A stretch of DNA of 33,121 nt. It comes from Candidatus Caenarcanales bacterium (lineage in GTDB: Bacteria > Cyanobacteriota > Vampirovibrionia > Caenarcaniphilales > Caenarcanaceae). The translations under genes were made by a program, and so were the position numbers. The first letter of the stretch is position 1. Each line of letters opens with the position of its first letter. Location: positions 1-33,121 of the forward strand of contig JANRMG010000072.1 in the NCBI GenBank assembly GCA_033761855.1, written 5' to 3'. Positions 978 to 12,511 of the stretch are shown here, piece after piece. The notes beneath the pieces are model-generated. The model made no database searches. It was not told where the DNA came from and saw nothing but the letters and a program-made list of their open reading frames with translations.

Positions 978-2078
978 ATGGAAAGTATTCTTCACAAGCT
1001 AATAAAGGAGCTGCCAAGTAAAGAAAATCATGGCTTAATAAAAAGAATTTTTGGCCATTTTTACTATGTATCAGCCTTTGATGGGAGCTTAGAAGAACTT
1101 ACACCTCTCACACTGCCAACACGGCTACAAAAACAAGGCACTGATTGTTTAGTGGGAGATGTTGTTGAGTTTGATGCACAGAATAAAGTTATCAAAGCCG
1201 TTATTCAGCGCAAATCTCAGCTGCTGAGGCCTAAAGTGGCAAATGTTGACAGGGCTTTAATTGTTGTATCCACAACTCAACCACAGCTAGAAGCTGATTA
1301 TTTGGACAGACTTCTTTGCCAAGCAACTTTGTCTTTGCCGCAAAAACCAATTGTTTGTCTTACGAAAATAGATTTACAGCACGAACCAGACTGGTTAAGC
1401 ATTTACAAAGATTTAGGAATAGAACTAGTTCAAATTTCAAATCCCAAAGGTATTGGATTGGATGAATTAAAGAGCAAACTTTTAAGTTACACCTCTGTAC
1501 TTGCTGGACAATCGGGTGTTGGCAAATCCAGTCTCTTGCAATCGCTCTTCCCGACAAAGGAATTCAAGGTCGGAGAGGTAAGCCAAAAAATCAATCGTGG
1601 TACTCATACAACCAGGCACATAGAAATTTTTGAGGGGCGTTTTCATGAACAAAGTTTTTATATACTAGATGCACCTGGCTTTAGTCGACTAGAAGCGAAT
1701 TTTACTCCTCTTGAATTGGCACGGTCAAATGGATTCCCCGAAATAGAGAGAAAGAAAGAAGATTGTAAATTCCTAGACTGTTTGCATTTAGATGAAGAAG
1801 GTTGCGCCGTCCAGTTCTGCGATTCCAGAAAAAAAAGTTACCGAAAAATTATGGAAGAAGCCGAAAAATATGAAAAGTCAGAACAGGAGACAAATACAAA
1901 AGAAAGAAGAGAATCCAATAAAACCGATGCCGAGATGACTCTTCCTAAGCTCAGAGCTTCACAGAGAGCAATTTCCCGCAAACGCCGAAAGCAAGACTAT
2001 AATCTCAAAGATGAATTAGAGAATGATTTAGAGGACGATTTGGGAGATGATCTAGAAAGCGATGATGAACAGAATTAA
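978..2078 (+). CDS. rsgA: ribosome small-subunit biogenesis GTPase RsgA with long charged C-terminal extension
   Basis: Circularly permuted GTPase motifs TKIDL (G4), GQSGVGKSS (G1), DAPG (G3), and a zinc knuckle CKFLDCLHLDEEGCAV. Starts 4 nt after the rdgB stop. Confidence 0.9.
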   Translation: MESILHKLIKELPSKENHGLIKRIFGHFYYVSAFDGSLEELTPLTLPTRLQKQGTDCLVGDVVEFDAQNKVIKAVIQRKSQLLRPKVANVDRALIVVSTTQPQLEADYLDRLLCQATLSLPQKPIVCLTKIDLQHEPDWLSIYKDLGIELVQISNPKGIGLDELKSKLLSYTSVLAGQSGVGKSSLLQSLFPTKEFKVGEVSQKINRGTHTTRHIEIFEGRFHEQSFYILDAPGFSRLEANFTPLELARSNGFPEIERKKEDCKFLDCLHLDEEGCAVQFCDSRKKSYRKIMEEAEKYEKSEQETNTKERRESNKTDAEMTLPKLRASQRAISRKRRKQDYNLKDELENDLEDDLGDDLESDDEQN

Positions 2079-3628
2079 TTTTTGGTTTTTGCTTTAGCTT
2101 TAAGCTTTGGCTCTTCGCCGTTTATCTCTGCTCTTAGTTCTTCTCCTAAAATAATAGTTATATCGGCAAGCGGAAAACCCATACTAGATCCTATAACCTG
2201 AACCGAAGAGCTTAGACCAAGTTTTTTATGAATCAATTTAGCATCTTCCAGATTTCCTTTTTGAGCGTAAATGCTTGAAGGCAAGACCTTCTTTGAGTTG
2301 CTTATATCAACTATACTGAAACCAGCCTTCCTAAGCTGTGAAGAAAGTTTAGCTGAGGCATTACGGTCACCAGAAATGTTTTCGATGGCCACTTTAATTG
2401 AATGAGGATCAATGGTTTCCTCCTCCGAAAGAGTTTCATCGTATTTAAAGAGTTTAGCTACAACTTTTTTTATCTCGGCTTCATTGGCTATCCAATAGCT
2501 CACAAAGGGAGCCTGCACAGTAATTACTTTTTCTCTAAGAATCGGCTCTCCTGAACCTTCCAAAGTATCACCTCCCAAGTCCCCTGCAGTGCCAGTTGAA
2601 GAAGTTCCAGGTGACGGCTGAGCAGATGAAGAATCTTGCCCTTGATCTGGAGCCACCGGATAAACTTCTTCATAAACCCCTTTAGTTTGCATCTCTGGCA
2701 TTGAGAAATCACCTGGCAAAGTGGCAAAAACGTGATCATCAGAGAGAACCGAACGAACAAAATTGGCAAACTGCAGAAGTTCGGAAATTTTCAGATCGGT
2801 TTTAATATTTTCTAAAGCAATGTTAGTGAGCTTTGGAAGCTTTGTTACCATGTATGGGTCTGAGAGTTTTTTCTTAGCCGCTCTCAAAAAGATTTGTTGC
2901 CTTTGAATACGTCCAATGTCTCCGAGATTATCATGTCTAAAACGTAAAAAACCTATTGTTTGTTTACCGCTTAAAACTTGCTTGCCCGGCTGCAAATCAA
3001 TGTTTAGTCCATCAGTCTTATCGACATATTTCATTCTTTTGTCGACTTCGACTTCGACTCCGCCTGCCTCATCAATGATTTGCTCAATACCTTTGGTATT
3101 CACCAAAACATAGTGGTCAATTTTTATATCCAAGAGACTTTCCACAACTTGCTTTAAGTACTCTGGGCCTTTGATTACATTTACTGAATTTATTTTGTCA
3201 GCAGTTTTTCCGTTTAAATATATTTTTGTATCGCGAGGAATATTCAAAGCTGACAATCTTTTTTGTATTGGATCAAATTTGAAAACAACGATTGTATCGG
3301 TACGCCCTTTGAATTTATTTTGTGTTTTATAAGCGTAACCATCTTTGGCAATTTTGTACTCTTGATCGGTTCCGGCTACTAGAAGAGTAACTGGCTCTTT
3401 AAGAGAATAAAAACTAAAAGTGTTTATAAAATTAAAATTATCTTTTTGCCCATGAATACTGGTTTTGTTCAAATAAGTAAGACCAAAAATCAAGAACACA
3501 ACTAAAAAGAAAACTATCAGTTCCAAAGCCAAGCTTCGATTGGTATTTGAGCTATTTCTTTTTGAATCGGTCATTTTAGTTATTGGTATAATAGGTCTGG
3601 AAGCCAATTTAGAAGAATTCATATTCAT
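2075..3628 (-). CDS. LytR-CpsA-Psr (LCP) family cell-envelope phosphotransferase with C-terminal LytR_C-like domain
   Basis: N-terminal TM helix, then GRTDTIVVFKFDP...LSALNIPRDT (LCP core). A Ser/Gly/Thr-rich linker precedes a C-terminal domain resembling LytR_C. Confidence 0.85.
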   Translation of the reverse strand: MNMNSSKLASRPIIPITKMTDSKRNSSNTNRSLALELIVFFLVVFLIFGLTYLNKTSIHGQKDNFNFINTFSFYSLKEPVTLLVAGTDQEYKIAKDGYAYKTQNKFKGRTDTIVVFKFDPIQKRLSALNIPRDTKIYLNGKTADKINSVNVIKGPEYLKQVVESLLDIKIDHYVLVNTKGIEQIIDEAGGVEVEVDKRMKYVDKTDGLNIDLQPGKQVLSGKQTIGFLRFRHDNLGDIGRIQRQQIFLRAAKKKLSDPYMVTKLPKLTNIALENIKTDLKISELLQFANFVRSVLSDDHVFATLPGDFSMPEMQTKGVYEEVYPVAPDQGQDSSSAQPSPGTSSTGTAGDLGGDTLEGSGEPILREKVITVQAPFVSYWIANEAEIKKVVAKLFKYDETLSEEETIDPHSIKVAIENISGDRNASAKLSSQLRKAGFSIVDISNSKKVLPSSIYAQKGNLEDAKLIHKKLGLSSSVQVIGSSMGFPLADITIILGEELRAEINGEEPKLKAKAKTKN

Positions 3629-3843
3629 AGGTTAAGCTTATAAAATAAAAGTTTAGATAGCTTAAGAATCATAATCAAAAACTACCGTTTAAATGCCAAA
3701 AAGTAATTTAGTAGTATAAAATTTAATTTTTCTAGTAAATTTTTTGGCAAATTCAATCATAGAGTTCACTCGAAAAATCTACTTATTGAATTTATTTTGC
3801 AAAAGCTTTAGCTGGATGTTTTAAGAAGGATAATTTTATAGTC

Positions 3844-4653
3844 ATGGATTCAAAGAAAGCAACTAGCCCAAACCGCTCAGATATCGATACAGATCTGGTT
3901 CACTCACTGCTCGCAGAGTACAGAGTGAGTAAAAAAGCAGCCTTAAAAGAAAAAATAATTAAACATTGTATGGGTTTGGTTAAGAGAATTGCCAATGGAC
4001 TTGCAAGAAGAAGCACAGACTCAATCGACGACTTAGTTCAGGTTGGTTGCATAGGTTTAATTAAGGCAATCGAAAACTTTGACCCGGACGCTGGAGCCAA
4101 GTGCACAACTTATTTTACGCACTTAATTGCCGGTGAAATGCGCCACTATTGCCGAGACAAAGCAATGTTGTTCCGTGCGCCCCGCGAATTGGTAGAACTT
4201 AACTTCCGCATCAGCCGTATTGTACAGGCCCTAACCTACGAATTTGGGCGCGAACCCACCGACTATGAGCTTGCAGAAGCTTTAGACGTTGATTCCAAAA
4301 AAATCCAAGAAGCTTTTGAAGTTGAAAGAAGAAGAACTCTCATTTCGCTTGACCAGACTCTATCATCGGATAATTCTGATGACCAAGTATTTTTAGACAC
4401 GCTTGTAGACACCAAATACCAAGCTTTTACTTATTTACAGGAACATCGTTTGGTCTTGCAGGATGCGCTCAAAAACATTAGTTCGCAAGCCCAAGAGATT
4501 ATTGAAGAAATCTTTCTCAACGAACAAACTCAAGCAAGTTACGCGAAGCGCCATAAGATTTCTCAGATGCAAACCTCGCGGCGGTTACGCTCGGCTTTGG
4601 CGGAGTTAAGACGTTATTTCCATAAGATTGGTCAGCATCAGGCTTCAGTTTAG
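3844..4653 (+). CDS. RNA polymerase sigma-70 family factor, group 3 (SigB/SigF/SigG-like)
   Basis: Region 2 reads DDLVQVGCIGLIKAIENFDP...YFTHLIAGEMRHYCRD. Region 3 and a region 4.2 HTH (QASYAKRHKISQMQTSRRLRSALAELR) are present. About 270 aa with no region 1.1. Confidence 0.85.
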   Translation: MDSKKATSPNRSDIDTDLVHSLLAEYRVSKKAALKEKIIKHCMGLVKRIANGLARRSTDSIDDLVQVGCIGLIKAIENFDPDAGAKCTTYFTHLIAGEMRHYCRDKAMLFRAPRELVELNFRISRIVQALTYEFGREPTDYELAEALDVDSKKIQEAFEVERRRTLISLDQTLSSDNSDDQVFLDTLVDTKYQAFTYLQEHRLVLQDALKNISSQAQEIIEEIFLNEQTQASYAKRHKISQMQTSRRLRSALAELRRYFHKIGQHQASV

Positions 4654-4656
4654 ATT
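4581..4656 (+). repeat. Direct repeat copy 1 (functional 3' end of sigma gene, last 23 codons + stop + 3 nt)
   Basis: 69/76 identical to 5258-5333 with no indels, by hand alignment. Confidence 0.9.
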
Positions 4657-4977
4657 AGTTTGAAAAAGCTCTATTAGTTTTAAGTTCAACTGATGAGTAT
4701 CTTCTTGAGTTATTTCTCCAATGAGCGCTTCTACTAAGTCTCTATCAAGACTCGTTAACTTATCAAGTTTAACGATTGAAGTTTTCTTAAGACCATTTTG
4801 AGAGCTTGCTAAGAGGGTTAAATCAAACTGACTTTTAATTTCTATTTTTGTACTTATGAAGGCCAAAACAACATTTAAAGAATCTAAATTATTTACCAAA
4901 ATTAGCGCAGGCCGCTTTTTATAACCTTTAAGATCCGTGAATGGAAAAGGAACCAGAACAATGTCTCCCTTTTTCAT
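4645..4977 (-). CDS. type II toxin, PemK/MazF-family mRNA interferase
   Basis: N-terminus KKGDIVLVPFPFTDLKGYKKRPALIL matches the PemK/MazF signature. ATGA start/stop overlap with the upstream antitoxin ORF. The 3' end overlaps the sigma ORF by 9 nt. Confidence 0.85.
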   Translation of the reverse strand: MKKGDIVLVPFPFTDLKGYKKRPALILVNNLDSLNVVLAFISTKIEIKSQFDLTLLASSQNGLKKTSIVKLDKLTSLDRDLVEALIGEITQEDTHQLNLKLIELFQTNLN

Positions 4978-5237
4978 TTATAGATTTCCTTTGCATCTTC
5001 TAAGGTGTAAAGCTCTTCTTCATCATTTAAAAAATCAAAACACTGAGATTTGGATGTAATTTCTTGAATTACATTTATTAATGATGTTTCTTCTTTTGCT
5101 TTGGAAGAGCCAAGGTAATAAGCAAAATCGACAACTTTTTGCTTGATTTCTTCAGGAAATCCCTCAAATTCTTCGAAAAAAAGTTTTTTATTATAAGTCA
5201 TTGATTTTATGAATATTGATATTGAAATTATACACAA
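4974..5237 (-). CDS. putative antitoxin (DUF2281-like); real start probably ATG at 5201 (75 aa)
   Basis: Small acidic protein directly upstream of, and overlapping (ATGA), the toxin. MTYNKKLFFEEFEGFPEEIKQKVVDFAYYL resembles DUF2281-type antitoxins. The track start at 5237 is a TTG giving an implausible N-terminus. Confidence 0.6.
   Translation of the reverse strand: MCIISISIFIKSMTYNKKLFFEEFEGFPEEIKQKVVDFAYYLGSSKAKEETSLINVIQEITSKSQCFDFLNDEEELYTLEDAKEIYK
5213..5232 (-). promoter_or_regulatory. candidate TA promoter -10 (TATAAT, complement of 5227-5232) and tandem CAATAT/CAATAT operator-like repeat (5213-5224)
   Basis: A perfect TATAAT on the minus strand lies 26 nt upstream of the ATG at 5201. 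Tandem hexamers ATATTG ATATTG (plus strand) lie between it and the start. Confidence 0.35.
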
Positions 5238-5257
5238 ATAAACAGATAGTCCTCTAA

Positions 5258-5333
5258 GCGGTTACGCTCCGCTTTGGCTGAACTAAGACGTTATTTTCAT
5301 AAGATTGGGCAGCATCAGGCTTCGGTTTAGATT
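5258..5333 (+). repeat. Direct repeat copy 2 (orphan copy of sigma-gene 3' end)
   Basis: Translates in frame to RLRSALAELRRYFHKIGQHQASV*, identical to the sigma C-terminus. It has 7 nucleotide differences, all synonymous. Confidence 0.9.
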
Positions 5334-5608
5334 CCCTGAGAAGAACCTTCTGCAATTTGCCTAATTCTTTGGTTTTGACTGTCTGTAAATTCTTTTGCTT
5401 GTCCATCAGTTGGTTTAAATCCAGTGCCAGTACTTGCGGACTTTAAAGATGATGAGTTAAATGTGTCAGTTTGAGGTACTGACTCGAAGCCATCGGGGAT
5501 AACAGGAGTAGTTGTTTTTGGAAAAAGCTGACTTGGAATATTCTTTGTAATAGCTTCTAAACTTTTGCCAAAAAGTTGTTATTGAAAATTGAAGTTTCAC
5601 TACCCATT
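5327..5608 (-). pseudogene. frameshifted ORF for a small Ser/Thr-rich protein (pseudogene, homopolymer error or -1 frameshift)
   Basis: AAGGAAA SD then ATG (5608) gives MGSETSIFNNNFLAKV*. The -1 frame stays open for about 77 more codons (LEAITKNIPSQLFPKTTTPVIPDGFES...SSQGI*) and ends at 5327 inside repeat copy 2. The two frames overlap across cttttt and caaaag runs. Confidence 0.3.
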
Positions 5609-5615
5609 GTTTATT

Positions 5616-5667
5616 TTCCTTAATTAACCCTATTGAAACCAATTTAACATTGATTAATTAAGAGGAA
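5616..5667. promoter_or_regulatory. imperfect inverted repeat in divergent promoter region
   Basis: TTCCTTAATTAA (5616-5627) and TTAATTAAGAGGAA (5654-5667) are complementary apart from a bulge. The left arm contains the SD of the minus-strand ORF. ATTGA recurs three times nearby. Confidence 0.25.
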
Positions 5668-5773
5668 ATTATTGATTAGCTCATAGTTTTCCTGTTATCC
5701 AAACCTCAATAAAACAACAATAAAAATTTAATTTGATTTAGATAAAGTTGTTCTTAGGGAAAGGTTAAGCAAG

Positions 5774-6427
5774 ATGACTACATTAACAACAATTCCTGAT
5801 TCAGATATGATCAGGGTGGCTCAACAAGCACAGAGACTTACAAGCCCAACAACTTTACAAAACCCACCATCAGCAGCTTCAACCGGCGATTCTTTTGTAA
5901 ATAGTAGCTCTACTTTACAAAAACCAATTCAACTTGGTTTTAATCCTAAGACTCAAGAGAGCACATCTCCCATTGACACAAGCAATATTGCAAACACAAA
6001 CGTTAAACAATTTAGACCCATTGATCCAGCCCAACTGGACAGTAAATTAGAAGGGGTATTAAAAGGGCAAGGTGCGAATTTTGTCTCGATTGGACAAAAA
6101 TATAATATAGATCCAGCTTTTCTTGCAGCCATAGCCATGCTTGAAAGTGGAAATGGTTCTTCAAGAGCAGCTAAAGAAGCCAACAACGTAATGGGAGTCA
6201 TGACCGGTTCTGGCGCCAGCCAAATAAAAGATTTTGCAAGAGTTGAAGATAGTGTTGAATATATGGCCAAAGAGTTAACAGATCCGCAAGGCTATTATTC
6301 CAAAGCAAACACTATTGCGGAAATTCACCAGATATACGCTCCTGAAGGTGCTAATAATGACCCTAACGGTACTAACGGAGGTTGGGGACAGAACGTAGCT
6401 AAGTTTTATCAAGAATTTTTAGCTTAA
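5774..6427 (+). CDS. glucosaminidase-domain (FlgJ/LytD-like, GH73) peptidoglycan hydrolase with disordered N-terminus, no signal peptide
   Basis: C-terminal half reads NIDPAFLAAIAMLESGNGSSRAAKEANNVMGV, resembling the mannosyl-glycoprotein endo-beta-N-acetylglucosaminidase motif. The N-terminal ~90 aa are Ser/Thr/Pro/Gln-rich with no hydrophobic leader. Confidence 0.7.
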   Translation: MTTLTTIPDSDMIRVAQQAQRLTSPTTLQNPPSAASTGDSFVNSSSTLQKPIQLGFNPKTQESTSPIDTSNIANTNVKQFRPIDPAQLDSKLEGVLKGQGANFVSIGQKYNIDPAFLAAIAMLESGNGSSRAAKEANNVMGVMTGSGASQIKDFARVEDSVEYMAKELTDPQGYYSKANTIAEIHQIYAPEGANNDPNGTNGGWGQNVAKFYQEFLA

Positions 6428-6450
6428 GTTTTTATTCTAGGCTTTCTGAG

Positions 6451-6475
6451 AGGCTAATCTAGCCTTAATTTTATT
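6451..6475 (+). terminator. weak hairpin after glucosaminidase gene
   Basis: AGGCTA atc TAGCCT (6451-6465) followed by taattttatt. Short stem and 3-nt loop. Confidence 0.25.
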
Positions 6476-6524
6476 AGGGTAATCTTGGTGTTAGAGGGAT
6501 AAGAATTTTAGAGGGTAAGAAAAT

Positions 6525-7280
6525 ATGAGTGATCCCAGAGTAATTTCTCCAAGTGTTTCAACACAATCGCTAGCACAAGGTACAACAGATAAACAGATGC
6601 TAGATTTGCATGCAAAAGCACCTTCATTACAGGAGTTGACAGGTAATGAGAATGCTACTTTTGGAAACCAGTTCAAAGAACAAAATTTTAATCAATTTAA
6701 TTCAGGATACAATAGTTTAACGGGTTCATTGGGTTCTACTCCTCTTACGGACGCACAAGCTGTTGAAAAACTTAATGCAAGTTTTGGGTCTAAAATTCAA
6801 AGAGGTTTCCAAGAAGGTGGACAAGATACTTCTAAAGTCAAGGAATTTATTCAAGAAGCCATAAACATCGGTAAACAATTTAATTACCCAAATCCAGCTA
6901 TGTTTGCTGGTGGCCTACTTAAACTTATGGAGCTTGAATGTGGATTTAATCCAGTGAAAACCAATTCACTAGGATATAAAGGTCTTATTCAGTTTTCACC
7001 TGAGAATCAAAGAAAATATAATCCTGTCGCTGATCCAATACAGCAGATGAGGGGCGCTGTAACAAACTATTTAAAAGATAATAGAAATAGCCTCAACTCA
7101 AGTGTAAGGGCTGCTGATGTTCAAGAAAATGGTAAAAGGCTTTTAGTATCTGTTTTCACTGGCCCAGGTAGCTCATCCTTGCACAATCCTGATGCCTCAA
7201 AGACTGCTGATGCTTATGGAACCTCGGTTTCCAAATATGCAAGTAATATTGAGCAGGGACAAACTCTTGCAGTTGCTTAA
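6525..7280 (+). CDS. SLT-like lytic transglycosylase-domain protein with disordered N-terminus, no signal peptide
   Basis: LMELECGFNPVKTNSLGYKGLIQFS fits the SLT pattern (catalytic Glu ... G-L-x-Q). GAGGG SD upstream. The N-terminal ~110 aa are low complexity. Confidence 0.55.
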   Translation: MSDPRVISPSVSTQSLAQGTTDKQMLDLHAKAPSLQELTGNENATFGNQFKEQNFNQFNSGYNSLTGSLGSTPLTDAQAVEKLNASFGSKIQRGFQEGGQDTSKVKEFIQEAINIGKQFNYPNPAMFAGGLLKLMELECGFNPVKTNSLGYKGLIQFSPENQRKYNPVADPIQQMRGAVTNYLKDNRNSLNSSVRAADVQENGKRLLVSVFTGPGSSSLHNPDASKTADAYGTSVSKYASNIEQGQTLAVA

Positions 7281-12136: not shown

Positions 12137-12511
12137 TTAACTAAGCATGACTTGCTCTATACAATTAACTATGTATGAATTAATACTTTTACTCTGTTCC
12201 TTTGCTCTTTTGTAGATGAGTGCATGCTGAGCAGGGTTCAATCTTAAATTTAGTCGCCCGGAAAAATCACCGGGGCTTTCTAAAGCTTCTAAATAAAGAT
12301 GAAGATTTAATGAAAGACATTTAATGGCTTCTTCTGGAGACTTACCATGGCCGATAACATCGATATCATCTTCTTCAATTTCTGCATACCAAGTTTTATC
12401 TTCTTCATCAAAACTAAGTTTTATGTGGTACTTACTTAAGACCGAGTCTTTTGAGAACTTTGCCGACATACCCTTTTTTAACATATCGTTCCTTTCCATG
12501 CGGCTTAACAA
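12137..12511 (-). CDS. hicB: HicB-family antitoxin with C-terminal ribbon-helix-helix; likely true start ATG at 12469
   Basis: HicB-like N-domain (YHIKLSFDEEDKTWYAEI...GHGKSPEEAI) plus an RHH-like tail (GRLNLRLNPAQHALIYKRAKEQSKSINSYIV). The N-terminal 14 codons of the track ORF overlap the hicA remnant. Confidence 0.8.
   Translation of the reverse strand: MLSRMERNDMLKKGMSAKFSKDSVLSKYHIKLSFDEEDKTWYAEIEEDDIDVIGHGKSPEEAIKCLSLNLHLYLEALESPGDFSGRLNLRLNPAQHALIYKRAKEQSKSINSYIVNCIEQVMLS

What the first reader, a model, noticed from the sequence alone, without database searches (positions are those of the whole stretch)
4581..5333. Toxin-antitoxin mini-island inserted in the 3' end of a sigma-factor gene, flanked by 76-bp repeats that differ only at synonymous sites
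4581-4656 (the last 23 codons, stop and 3 nt of the group-3 sigma gene) recurs at 5258-5333, with 69/76 identities and no indels. Translated in the sigma frame, both copies give RLRSALAELRRYFHKIGQHQASV*. All 7 differences are synonymous: tcg/tcc, gcg/gct, gag/gaa, tta/cta, ttc/ttt, ggt/ggg, tca/tcg. A recent local duplication would be identical, and a decaying non-coding copy would not mutate only at silent sites. The pattern therefore implies that the two copies evolved as coding sequence in two different lineages. This is the signature of an integrative element that brings a replacement 3' end for its target gene, or of recombination with a diverged allele. The 601 bp between the repeats holds only a PemK/MazF toxin, its antitoxin and their putative promoter. 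It is either a very small cargo-only cassette or the addictive remnant of a larger island. No integrase is present.
Basis: seen in the sequence. Interest (0 to 1): 0.7.

Follow-up and report, generated by a model that had tools for sequence, protein, structure and literature searches.

The report
Recombination scar beside a toxin-antitoxin pair
A stray second copy of the last 75 bases of a sigma-factor gene sits behind a toxin-antitoxin pair, and it is most likely a recent scar from recombination between two diverged versions of a variable chromosomal spot, not the footprint of a self-integrating mobile element.

Summary
4581-4656 recurs at 5258-5333 with 69/76 identities and no indels. All 7 differences are synonymous in the sigma frame (chance about 1e-4). 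The repeat is unique in the window.

The genome is a Caenarcaniphilales (Melainabacteria) MAG. Its closest available relative, R2 (Logan contigs L006 and L007), has the same PemK/MazF pair directly after the same sigma gene but no second copy. R2's antitoxin-upstream intergenic region is homologous to the window's 5608-5740, which lies upstream of the small minus-strand gene that follows copy 2. So the toxin-antitoxin pair and that small gene are alternative occupants of one slot, and the window carries both in tandem.

At 6 of the 7 variable sites, copy 2 matches R2's functional gene. Copy 2 has at most 1 private change, where about 26 would be expected had it been non-coding as long as copy 1 took to gain its six. 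It was therefore coding in another lineage until recently.

No recombinase lies anywhere in the 33 kb. The cassette is absent from plasmids, phages and viral contigs.

Best reading: an illegitimate crossover (HFIR-like) joined a TA-bearing haplotype and a TA-less haplotype. Interest is modest.

The parts
3844..4653 (+). Group-3 (SigB/SigF-type) sigma factor gene, 269 aa, intact
   Evidence: Pfam Sigma70 r2, r3 and r4. NCBIfam best hits are SigF and SigBFG, both below cutoff. Orthologues lie next to a LytR-family gene in all Caenarcaniphilales relatives.
4581..4656 (+). Copy 1: the working 3' end of the sigma gene (last 23 codons, stop, 3 nt)
   Evidence: It carries 6 of the 7 differences as private synonymous changes relative to copy 2 and R2.
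4645..4977 (-). PemK/MazF-family toxin gene, 110 aa; its last 4 codons (NLN*) lie inside copy 1, convergent with sigma
   Evidence: Pfam PF02452, 1.1e-14, full-length. 80.6% aa identity to R2, dN/dS about 0.16. The TGA stop is created by the copy-1-specific TCG>TCA change.
4974..5201 (-). Putative antitoxin gene, 75 aa, ATGA overlap with the toxin start
   Evidence: Position and overlap. Conserved in R2 at 72% aa identity, dN/dS about 0.15. Only a weak VapB-like N-terminal hit, E 1e-3, below cutoff. No Pfam hit.
5202..5233 (-). TA upstream region shared with R2; contains TATAAT (5232-5227 on the minus strand)
   Evidence: The BLAST alignment with R2 ends at 5233. Sequence. Promoter function is inferred, not shown; the consensus scan did not call it.
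5234..5257 (.). Junction stretch of unresolved origin. It contains TAG (5247-5249), in frame with copy 2, and partial similarity to sigma (CCTC..., 5251-5257): the probable illegitimate-join microhomology
   Evidence: Its similarity to R2's intergenic region is not significant (927 of 1000 shuffles score as well).
5258..5333 (+). Copy 2: orphan 3' end of a sigma allele from another lineage. It has no start codon and is not part of any ORF
   Evidence: It agrees with R2's functional gene at 6 of the 7 sites that differ from copy 1, and it has no indel and no non-synonymous change.
5327..5607 (-). Small minus-strand gene ('frag', about 93 aa if repaired), frameshifted. Its TAA stop overlaps copy 2's TAG stop. 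No homologues found
   Evidence: No Pfam or NCBIfam hit. Absent from all 132 fetched loci.
5608..5740 (.). Intergenic region homologous to R2's antitoxin-to-geneY intergenic region; the right-hand border of the slot
   Evidence: Global alignment score 47 against shuffles at 26.7 +/- 5.7, 0 of 1000 as good; two control intergenic regions are not significant. Collinear local matches at 5657-5675 and 5717-5734.
5774..6427 (+). geneX, a glucosaminidase-domain protein of 217 aa, unique to this genome
   Evidence: Pfam PF01832, 1e-12. Only one remote homologue (37% identity) in 5.8 billion proteins.
6464..6517 (+). Conserved 54-nt element upstream of geneY, where homology with R2 resumes
   Evidence: 80% identity to R2. 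Three TTAG(A)GGGWAA repeats.

Best explanation
The arrangement is a scar of illegitimate (unequal) recombination between two diverged haplotypes of a hypervariable chromosomal slot. The slot lies between the conserved sigma gene and the next intergenic region. One haplotype ('D', the kind seen in R2) reads sigma - toxin/antitoxin - intergenic. The other ('E', inferred) reads sigma - small minus-strand gene (frag) - intergenic - geneX. DNA of one haplotype entered a cell of the other. It recombined homologously on one side and joined illegitimately on the other, as in homology-facilitated illegitimate recombination. The illegitimate join fell just upstream of the antitoxin gene in D (about 5234-5257) and at about codon 246-247 of sigma in E. 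The product is sigma_D (complete, including copy 1) - TA - sigma_E 3' end (copy 2, orphan) - frag - intergenic - geneX. The copies differ only at silent sites because each was under protein-level selection in its own lineage until the join. The join is recent relative to the allele divergence, so copy 2 has not yet decayed. Shown: the repeat and its statistics; the shared position of the TA pair in R2; the homology of the intergenic border; the absence of recombinases; the near-unchanged state of copy 2. Inferred: the existence of haplotype E; the direction of transfer (which haplotype was the recipient cannot be told); the use of microhomology at the join.
For: (1) All 7 differences are synonymous, P about 1e-4. 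(2) In the three-way comparison with R2, the private changes are 6 for copy 1, 1 for copy 2 and 5 for R2, all synonymous. A neutral copy 2 of the same age as copy 1's branch should have about 26 changes (P 1e-10). So copy 2 was orphaned recently, and the copies did not arise by local duplication. (3) The c1-c2 silent divergence (pS 0.43) is of the same order as the window-R2 orthologue divergence (sigma 0.60), which indicates inter-lineage alleles. (4) R2 carries the orthologous TA pair (80% nt identity, dN/dS about 0.15) starting 3 nt after the sigma stop, exactly as in the window, and has no second copy. (5) R2's antitoxin-upstream intergenic region is homologous to the window's 5608-5740, upstream of frag (0 of 1000 shuffles; controls negative). 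TA and frag therefore fill the same slot. (6) The sigma-to-NUDIX interval holds non-homologous genes in the window, R2 and L005, and synteny downstream of sigma is lost in more distant relatives, which marks a gene-turnover hotspot. (7) There is no recombinase or transposase in the 33 kb, and no trace of the cassette in plasmids, phages or viral contigs. (8) HFIR is an established route that needs homology at one end only (PMC3240628, abstract).
Against: Haplotype E (sigma directly followed by frag and geneX) was not found in any genome or metagenome searched; frag and geneX have no close homologues at all. Only one close relative (R2) exists, and it is itself far away (sigma dS about 1.2), so neither the polarity of the changes nor the direction of transfer can be fixed. 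Copy 2's lower distance to R2 (pS 0.34) is not significant: 7% of 24-codon windows along sigma are as low. The homology of 5234-5257 to R2's intergenic region is not significant, so the exact join and its microhomology remain inference. The window is a single MAG contig, and the 5249/5250 junction cannot be checked against reads here.
Confidence: 0.55

Rival explanations
1. Decayed integrative element of the e14/icd type. An element with an integrase inserted into the 3' end of the sigma gene, bringing its own replacement 3' end (copy 1) and displacing the native one (copy 2). Later deletions removed everything except the addictive TA pair.
For: The geometry matches: a working gene with a substituted 3' end, cargo, then an orphan 3' end with silent differences. 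E. coli icd / e14 / icdC is a documented case of this layout (PMC13626634). The TA region has lower GC (0.30-0.33) than the neighbouring core genes (0.40-0.44). TA silent divergence from R2 (pS 0.49) is slightly lower than that of the host genes (0.60-0.70), a weak hint of later horizontal movement.
Against: No recombinase in the insert or anywhere in the 33 kb. R2 has the TA pair at the same site without an orphan copy. The sequence to the right of R2's TA pair is host intergenic DNA homologous to the window's 5608-5740, so no element boundary is visible. A single old insertion shared with R2 is incompatible with the undecayed copy 2; independent insertions plus loss of both integrases and of R2's orphan copy need several extra events. 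The cassette was not found in any mobile-element collection. The pS difference is confounded by the AT-rich codon use of the TA genes.
Confidence: 0.17
2. Assembly artefact. The contig is a chimera of two co-occurring related populations, one with sigma-TA and one with sigma-frag-geneX, wrongly joined at 5249/5250.
For: The window is a single metagenome-assembled contig with no identical proteins elsewhere in the collections. The two copies differ at the level expected of two related populations. The frag gene carries a frameshift near homopolymer runs, which could indicate imperfect consensus quality.
Against: The copies share no exact run longer than 14 nt, so graph collapse between them is unlikely at the k-mer sizes assemblers usually use (my own knowledge, not tested here). 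There are no Ns at the junction. Copy 2 is not preceded by further sigma sequence, as a contig starting at a graph branch point would be. A false join between an antitoxin promoter region and the interior of a sigma gene has no shared sequence to cause it.
Confidence: 0.1
3. Integrase-free 'homology-handle' cassette. A small circle made of the TA pair plus one sigma 3' end is formed by recombination between the two repeats in a donor, and re-integrates by RecA-dependent single crossover into the ultra-conserved sigma 3' end of a new host, regenerating two diverged copies.
For: The structure is exactly what a single crossover of such a circle would give. The last 23 residues of sigma are nearly invariant across the order, which gives a conserved landing pad. 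The TA pair sits at the same sigma end in two lineages.
Against: No second example has two copies. The longest exact identity between the copies is 14 nt, which I judge too short for efficient RecA-mediated exchange (my own knowledge, not tested here). R2's TA pair continues directly into host intergenic DNA. No circular or extrachromosomal form and no other target were found.
Confidence: 0.08
4. Local tandem duplication or a long target-site duplication within this lineage, with the copies diverging afterwards in place.
For: It is a direct repeat flanking an insert.
Against: The copies would start identical. Afterwards the non-coding copy should change faster and at all codon positions. Instead it has at most 1 change against 6 in the coding copy (P 2.5e-4 for that split given the target sizes; about 26 changes expected), and no indel or non-synonymous change.
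Confidence: 0.04

Closest known systems
E. coli K-12 icd / cryptic prophage e14 / icdC pseudogene
   Same: A working gene whose 3' end is one copy, then cargo, then an orphan C-terminal fragment of the same gene that differs mostly at silent sites. Recombination between the copies would give a chimeric but functional gene (PMC13626634).
   Different: e14 is a 15-kb prophage that excises by site-specific recombination (PMC13626634); that it encodes its own integrase is my own knowledge. Here the cargo is 601 bp with no recombinase, none lies within 33 kb, and the right-hand neighbour of the cargo in the relative R2 is host intergenic DNA.
Homology-facilitated illegitimate recombination (HFIR) scars after uptake of diverged DNA
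   Same: A homologous crossover on one side and an illegitimate join on the other, with no dedicated recombinase needed (PMC3240628, abstract). This explains a junction between an intergenic region and the interior of a gene, and allelic divergence of the retained fragment. That such joins typically use a few bases of microhomology is my own knowledge.
   Different: HFIR has been shown experimentally in a few competent bacteria and in E. coli conjugation. Nothing is known about competence in Caenarcaniphilales. The parental haplotype E has not been observed, and the microhomology here is only suggestive.
Chromosomal type II PemK/MazF toxin-antitoxin modules in variable genomic islets
   Same: A two-gene operon with the antitoxin first and overlapping the toxin, a full-length PemK fold, lower GC than the core genome, patchy distribution (only two lineages; the next relatives are about 50% identical, in Bacteroidota and Balneolales), and a location in a gene-turnover hotspot.
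   Different: The antitoxin matches no curated family above threshold. The toxin's last codons and stop overlap the convergent sigma gene.

Membership tests
Type II toxin-antitoxin system, PemK/MazF toxin family | Toxin with the PemK/MazF domain over its full length | tested here: met
   PF02452, E 1.1e-14, residues 2-105 on profile 1-109/109; 875 homologues, all PF02452.
Type II toxin-antitoxin system, PemK/MazF toxin family | Small antitoxin gene immediately upstream, co-oriented and overlapping or abutting the toxin | tested here: met
   4974-5201(-) overlaps the toxin start by ATGA. The pair is conserved in R2, with dN/dS about 0.15 for both genes.
Type II toxin-antitoxin system, PemK/MazF toxin family | Antitoxin belongs to a recognised antitoxin family (MazE/PemI/AbrB, RHH, etc.) | tested here: inconclusive
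   No Pfam hit. Only a VapB-type NCBIfam hit, E 1e-3, 19.5 bits against a cutoff of 60.
Type II toxin-antitoxin system, PemK/MazF toxin family | Toxin is an mRNA interferase neutralised by the antitoxin | not testable with these tools
   Needs expression and rescue assays.
Integrative element with replacement 3' end (e14/icd type; phage, ICE or genomic island in a gene's 3' end) | Direct repeats made of the target gene's 3' end flank the inserted DNA | tested here: met
Integrative element with replacement 3' end (e14/icd type; phage, ICE or genomic island in a gene's 3' end) | Element-encoded tyrosine or serine recombinase, or a recognisable remnant | tested here: not met
   Nothing in the 601 bp besides the TA pair. 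No recombinase or transposase Pfam domain in any ORF of 100 aa or more in the 33-kb window.
Integrative element with replacement 3' end (e14/icd type; phage, ICE or genomic island in a gene's 3' end) | Empty sites in relatives: the target gene directly followed by the sequence right of the second repeat | tested here: not met
   None of 18 orthologous loci has sigma followed by frag or geneX. Sampling is thin, so absence is weak evidence.
Integrative element with replacement 3' end (e14/icd type; phage, ICE or genomic island in a gene's 3' end) | Other occupied sites show the same two-repeat structure and discrete element ends | tested here: not met
   R2 has the TA pair at the same site with one copy only, and the TA pair runs into host intergenic DNA homologous to window 5608-5740.
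Integrative element with replacement 3' end (e14/icd type; phage, ICE or genomic island in a gene's 3' end) | Identical core (crossover) sequence shared by both repeats | tested here: inconclusive
   The longest identical runs are 14, 13 and 12 nt. This is compatible with a core but equally expected from 91% identity.
HFIR / illegitimate-recombination scar between diverged haplotypes | The retained fragment shows allelic (coding-type) divergence from the resident copy and is otherwise undecayed | tested here: met
   7 of 7 differences synonymous, no indels, at most 1 private change in copy 2.
HFIR / illegitimate-recombination scar between diverged haplotypes | Both parental haplotypes exist in nature | tested here: inconclusive
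   The TA-bearing haplotype exists (R2). The sigma-frag-geneX haplotype was not found. The shared intergenic border shows that TA and frag fill one slot.
HFIR / illegitimate-recombination scar between diverged haplotypes | The join lies between non-homologous sequences at a short microhomology | tested here: inconclusive
   5251-5257 (CCTCTAA) resembles sigma CCTCGCG (copy 1) and CTTCTAG (R2). The origin of 5234-5257 is statistically unresolved.
Transposon or IS target-site duplication | Short (2-14 bp) identical duplications flanking an element with terminal inverted repeats and a transposase | tested here: not met
   The repeat is 76 nt and 9% diverged. No transposase is present, and no terminal inverted repeats were reported for the insert.

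The most novel reading that the evidence does not exclude
The TA pair plus one copy of the ultra-conserved sigma 3' end is a minimal, recombinase-free mobile cassette. It loops out by recombination between its two flanking sigma ends and re-enters new hosts by host RecA-dependent single crossover into the same conserved gene end. It carries its own replacement 3' end, so the sigma gene stays intact, and its addiction module stabilises the insert.
Probability: 0.08. Interest if true: 0.7.

Novelty: new member of a known kind. Interest (0 to 1): 0.33.

Why it matters
The orphan fragment gives a relative date to a recombination event. It shows that two alleles of a conserved sigma gene, diverged at about 40% of silent sites, were brought into one chromosome recently, and that a toxin-antitoxin pair and an unrelated small gene are interchangeable fillings of one slot. 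This is a clean natural example of how accessory cassettes can be stacked next to core genes without a dedicated recombinase, in a poorly sampled non-photosynthetic cyanobacterial lineage. It is also a caution: gene-end duplications with silent-site differences look like att sites of integrative elements but can arise from illegitimate recombination between haplotypes. It does not reveal a new kind of element or mechanism.

Tried and rejected
1. Exact look-ups of the window's sigma and toxin proteins found no other contig. The 90%-identity clusters of the window's proteins (sigma, antitoxin, geneY, formyltransferase) add no closer relative.
2. A homologue search with geneX, meant to find a sigma-frag-geneX 'empty site', returned only one remote hit at 37% identity. 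This used the last search of its kind and was a dead end.
3. Scans of genome and metagenome collections with sigma gave 18 orthologous loci. Apart from R2, none has the TA pair, frag, geneX or a second sigma end.
4. Polarising the 7 differences with more distant orthologues (L004, L005, L011) failed, because silent sites are saturated.
5. I tried to infer the direction of transfer from silent-site distances to R2 (c2 0.34, c1 0.67, sigma body 0.59, NUDIX 0.64, TA 0.49). The segments are too short and the window-to-window scatter too large (range 0.21-1.0).
6. I tested whether 5234-5257 is diverged intergenic DNA like R2's. The result was not significant.
7. I looked for RNA structure or a terminator in either copy on either strand. 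All z-scores were within +/-0.7. The consensus promoter/terminator scan found no more sites than in shuffles and did not call the TA promoter.
8. A SigB-type promoter pattern (GTTTWW-N12-16-GGGTAW) had no match in the window.
9. Plasmid, phage and viral-contig searches for the cassette were all negative.
Full report
**What is in the sequence**

The window is a 33-kb, 37% GC chromosomal stretch of housekeeping genes. Sigma homologues named Candidatus Caenarcaniphilales / Melainabacteria place it in the non-photosynthetic cyanobacterial lineage.

The local gene order is as follows:
- a LytR-family gene at 2075-3628(-);
- a group-3 SigB/SigF-type sigma gene at 3844-4653(+);
- a PemK/MazF toxin gene at 4645-4977(-);
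- a 75-aa putative antitoxin gene at 4974-5201(-), overlapping the toxin start by ATGA;
- then the repeat copy.

The repeat finder gives one long direct repeat, 4574-4656 and 5251-5333. Every one of the seven differences is synonymous in the sigma frame. The chance of that for random substitutions of the same types is about 1e-4. The sequence occurs nowhere else in the window.

- The minus-strand ORF after copy 2 is broken. An ATG with a good ribosome-binding site at 5605-5607 opens only 16 codons. The 84-codon frame that ends at TAA 5327-5329, overlapping copy 2's TAG, is shifted by one base.
- Copy 2 is preceded by an in-frame TAG at 5247-5249 and has no start codon, so it is an orphan.

**Relatives**

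Eighteen orthologous loci were recovered. Most of those with enough upstream sequence keep LytR next to sigma. Downstream of sigma, synteny is lost or the genes are non-homologous:
- L001 has an amidohydrolase.
- L004 has UbiB.
- L005 has two unrelated small genes followed by NUDIX and the formyltransferase, as in the window.

None of these has the TA pair.

The exception is the closest relative, here called R2. It is the merge of Logan contigs L006 and L007, which share an identical 466-nt overlap. Compared with the window:
- R2's sigma is 98% identical in protein but only 85.6% in DNA (99 synonymous and 5 non-synonymous codon differences; dS about 1.2).
- R2 has the orthologous TA pair (80% nt identity, dN/dS about 0.15) starting 3 nt after the sigma stop, exactly as in the window.
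- R2 has no second copy of the sigma end. No other locus has one either.

Outside R2, the toxin's best relatives are about 50% identical; the named ones are from Bacteroidota and Balneolales. The 781-bp repeat-plus-TA region (4560-5340) has no match in plasmids or phages, and neither the repeat nor the toxin has a match in viral contigs.

**The slot**

Homology between the window and R2 runs from LytR through sigma and the TA pair and stops at 5233, just past a TATAAT upstream of the antitoxin. It resumes at 6464-6517, in front of geneY.

A more sensitive comparison shows that R2's antitoxin-to-geneY intergenic region is homologous to the window's 5608-5740. That is the intergenic region upstream of the broken small gene 'frag' and of geneX.
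- Two collinear local matches have the same spacing in both genomes.
- The global score is 47, against 26.7 +/- 5.7 for shuffles, with 0 of 1000 as good.
- Two control intergenic regions score at chance.

So in R2 the TA pair lies between 'sigma stop + 3 nt' and this intergenic region. In the window, frag lies between 'copy 2 stop + 3 nt' and the same intergenic region. The TA pair and frag are therefore alternative fillings of one slot, and the window carries both in tandem, each preceded by its own sigma 3' end.

**Age and origin of the copies**

With R2's functional gene as a third sequence, the 76-mers differ by 12 substitutions, all synonymous:

| Sequence | Private changes |
|---|---|
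| Copy 1 | 6 |
| Copy 2 | 1 |
| R2 | 5 |

At six of the seven copy-1/copy-2 differences, R2 agrees with the orphan copy 2.

Suppose the repeat had arisen by duplication in place. The non-coding copy would then have had about four times more mutable sites than the coding one. About 26 changes would be expected in copy 2 over the time copy 1 gained six. One is seen (P about 1e-10). A 6:1 split has P = 2.5e-4 given the target sizes.

Copy 2 therefore spent almost all of its history under protein-level selection, in a complete sigma gene of another lineage, and was orphaned recently. Silent divergence between the copies (pS 0.43) is of the same order as between the window and R2 (sigma 0.60). The two alleles thus come from clearly separate lineages.

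**Mechanism**

An integrative element is not supported, for these reasons:
- There is no recombinase in the insert or in any ORF of 100 aa or more across the 33 kb.
- The only other occupied site has one copy.
- What lies to the right of the TA pair in R2 is host intergenic DNA, not an element end.
- A single insertion ancestral to both genomes would make copy 2 far too old to be intact.

The simplest account is one illegitimate join between two haplotypes: D (sigma-TA-intergenic, as in R2) and E (sigma-frag-intergenic-geneX). The join falls between the antitoxin-upstream region of D and about codon 246-247 of sigma in E. A homologous crossover on the other side completes the exchange. This is the pattern of homology-facilitated illegitimate recombination (PMC3240628).

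The few bases of extra similarity at 5251-5257 (CCTCTAA in copy 2, CCTCGCG in copy 1, CTTCTAG in R2) would be the microhomology at the join. This is inference, since the origin of 5234-5257 could not be resolved statistically. Which haplotype was the recipient cannot be decided. Distances to R2 for the short segments scatter too much (24-codon windows in sigma range from 0.21 to 1.0).

**Weaknesses**

- Haplotype E has not been seen. Frag and geneX have essentially no homologues.
- Only one close relative is available, and it is itself distant.
- The contig is a MAG, and the junction cannot be checked against reads. A chimeric assembly is unlikely: no shared run exceeds 14 nt, there are no Ns, and there is no sigma sequence upstream of copy 2. 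It is not excluded.

**Comparison with known systems**

The layout is closest to icd/e14/icdC in E. coli, where a prophage substitutes the 3' end of icd and leaves an orphan C-terminal fragment (PMC13626634). The defining recombinase and discrete element ends are absent here. I therefore do not file this as an integrative element.

The TA pair itself is an ordinary chromosomal PemK/MazF module, with an antitoxin that no curated family recognises above threshold.

**Verdict**

This is a real and statistically solid feature. Its most likely meaning is a recent recombination scar in a gene-turnover hotspot, a new example of a known kind of event. Interest is modest (0.33). The most novel reading that remains open is a recombinase-free TA cassette that uses a carried sigma 3' end as a homology handle. 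It has no positive support beyond the geometry, and I put it at about 8%.

Noticed in passing
L006 110-433 (+) in locus coordinates (merged R2 2550-2800, minus strand): R2's orthologous toxin has a premature TAG after codon 84, replacing Leu85 of the window's toxin. Its antitoxin is intact. This may be a toxin on its way to inactivation.
   Followed up: partly
window 5327-5607 (-): A small gene with a good RBS and an ATG at 5605-5607 is interrupted. Sixteen codons are followed by a stop, and an 84-codon frame shifted by one base runs to TAA 5327-5329. A 1-nt indel near the T5/A4 runs would restore a protein of about 93 aa rich in S/T/Q/G. It is either a pseudogene or a consensus error. No homologues were found.
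   Followed up: partly
window 4645-4647: The copy-1-specific silent change TCG>TCA in sigma Ser267 creates the toxin's TGA stop on the opposite strand. With G, as in copy 2 and R2, the toxin would run 13 codons further into the sigma gene. The sigma and toxin genes overlap convergently by 9 nt.
   Followed up: partly
window 6464-6517 (and R2 3153-3208): A 54-nt element in front of geneY is 80% conserved with R2, although the surrounding sequence and most of the geneY proteins are unalignable. It holds three direct repeats, TTAG(A)GGGWAA, spaced 17 nt apart (6474, 6491, 6508). This may be a regulator binding site, or a promoter for the adjacent SigB/F-type sigma factor.
   Followed up: partly
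window 5774-7280; L005 5071-6580; R2 3214-3843: The genes between sigma and the NUDIX gene are mutually non-homologous small proteins in the three syntenic genomes (a glucosaminidase-domain protein and a 251-aa protein here; 237 and 225 aa in L005; 209 aa in R2). Only about 35 N-terminal residues of geneY look similar by eye between the window and R2 (not tested statistically). This looks like a fast-turnover islet of possibly cell-wall-active proteins.
   Followed up: partly
window 12137-12511 (-): A HicB-family antitoxin-like ORF (PF05534, 1.2e-8) has no co-oriented partner ORF of 40 aa or more next to it that could be HicA. It may be a second, solitary or degraded TA locus in the window.
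   Followed up: no
window 4657-5249 versus flanks: The TA region has GC of 0.30-0.33, against 0.40-0.44 in sigma and the other core genes. Its silent divergence from R2 (pS 0.49) is lower than that of sigma (0.60), LytR (0.70) or the NUDIX end (0.64). This is a weak hint that the TA pair moved between lineages after they split, but it is confounded by AT-rich codon use.
   Followed up: partly
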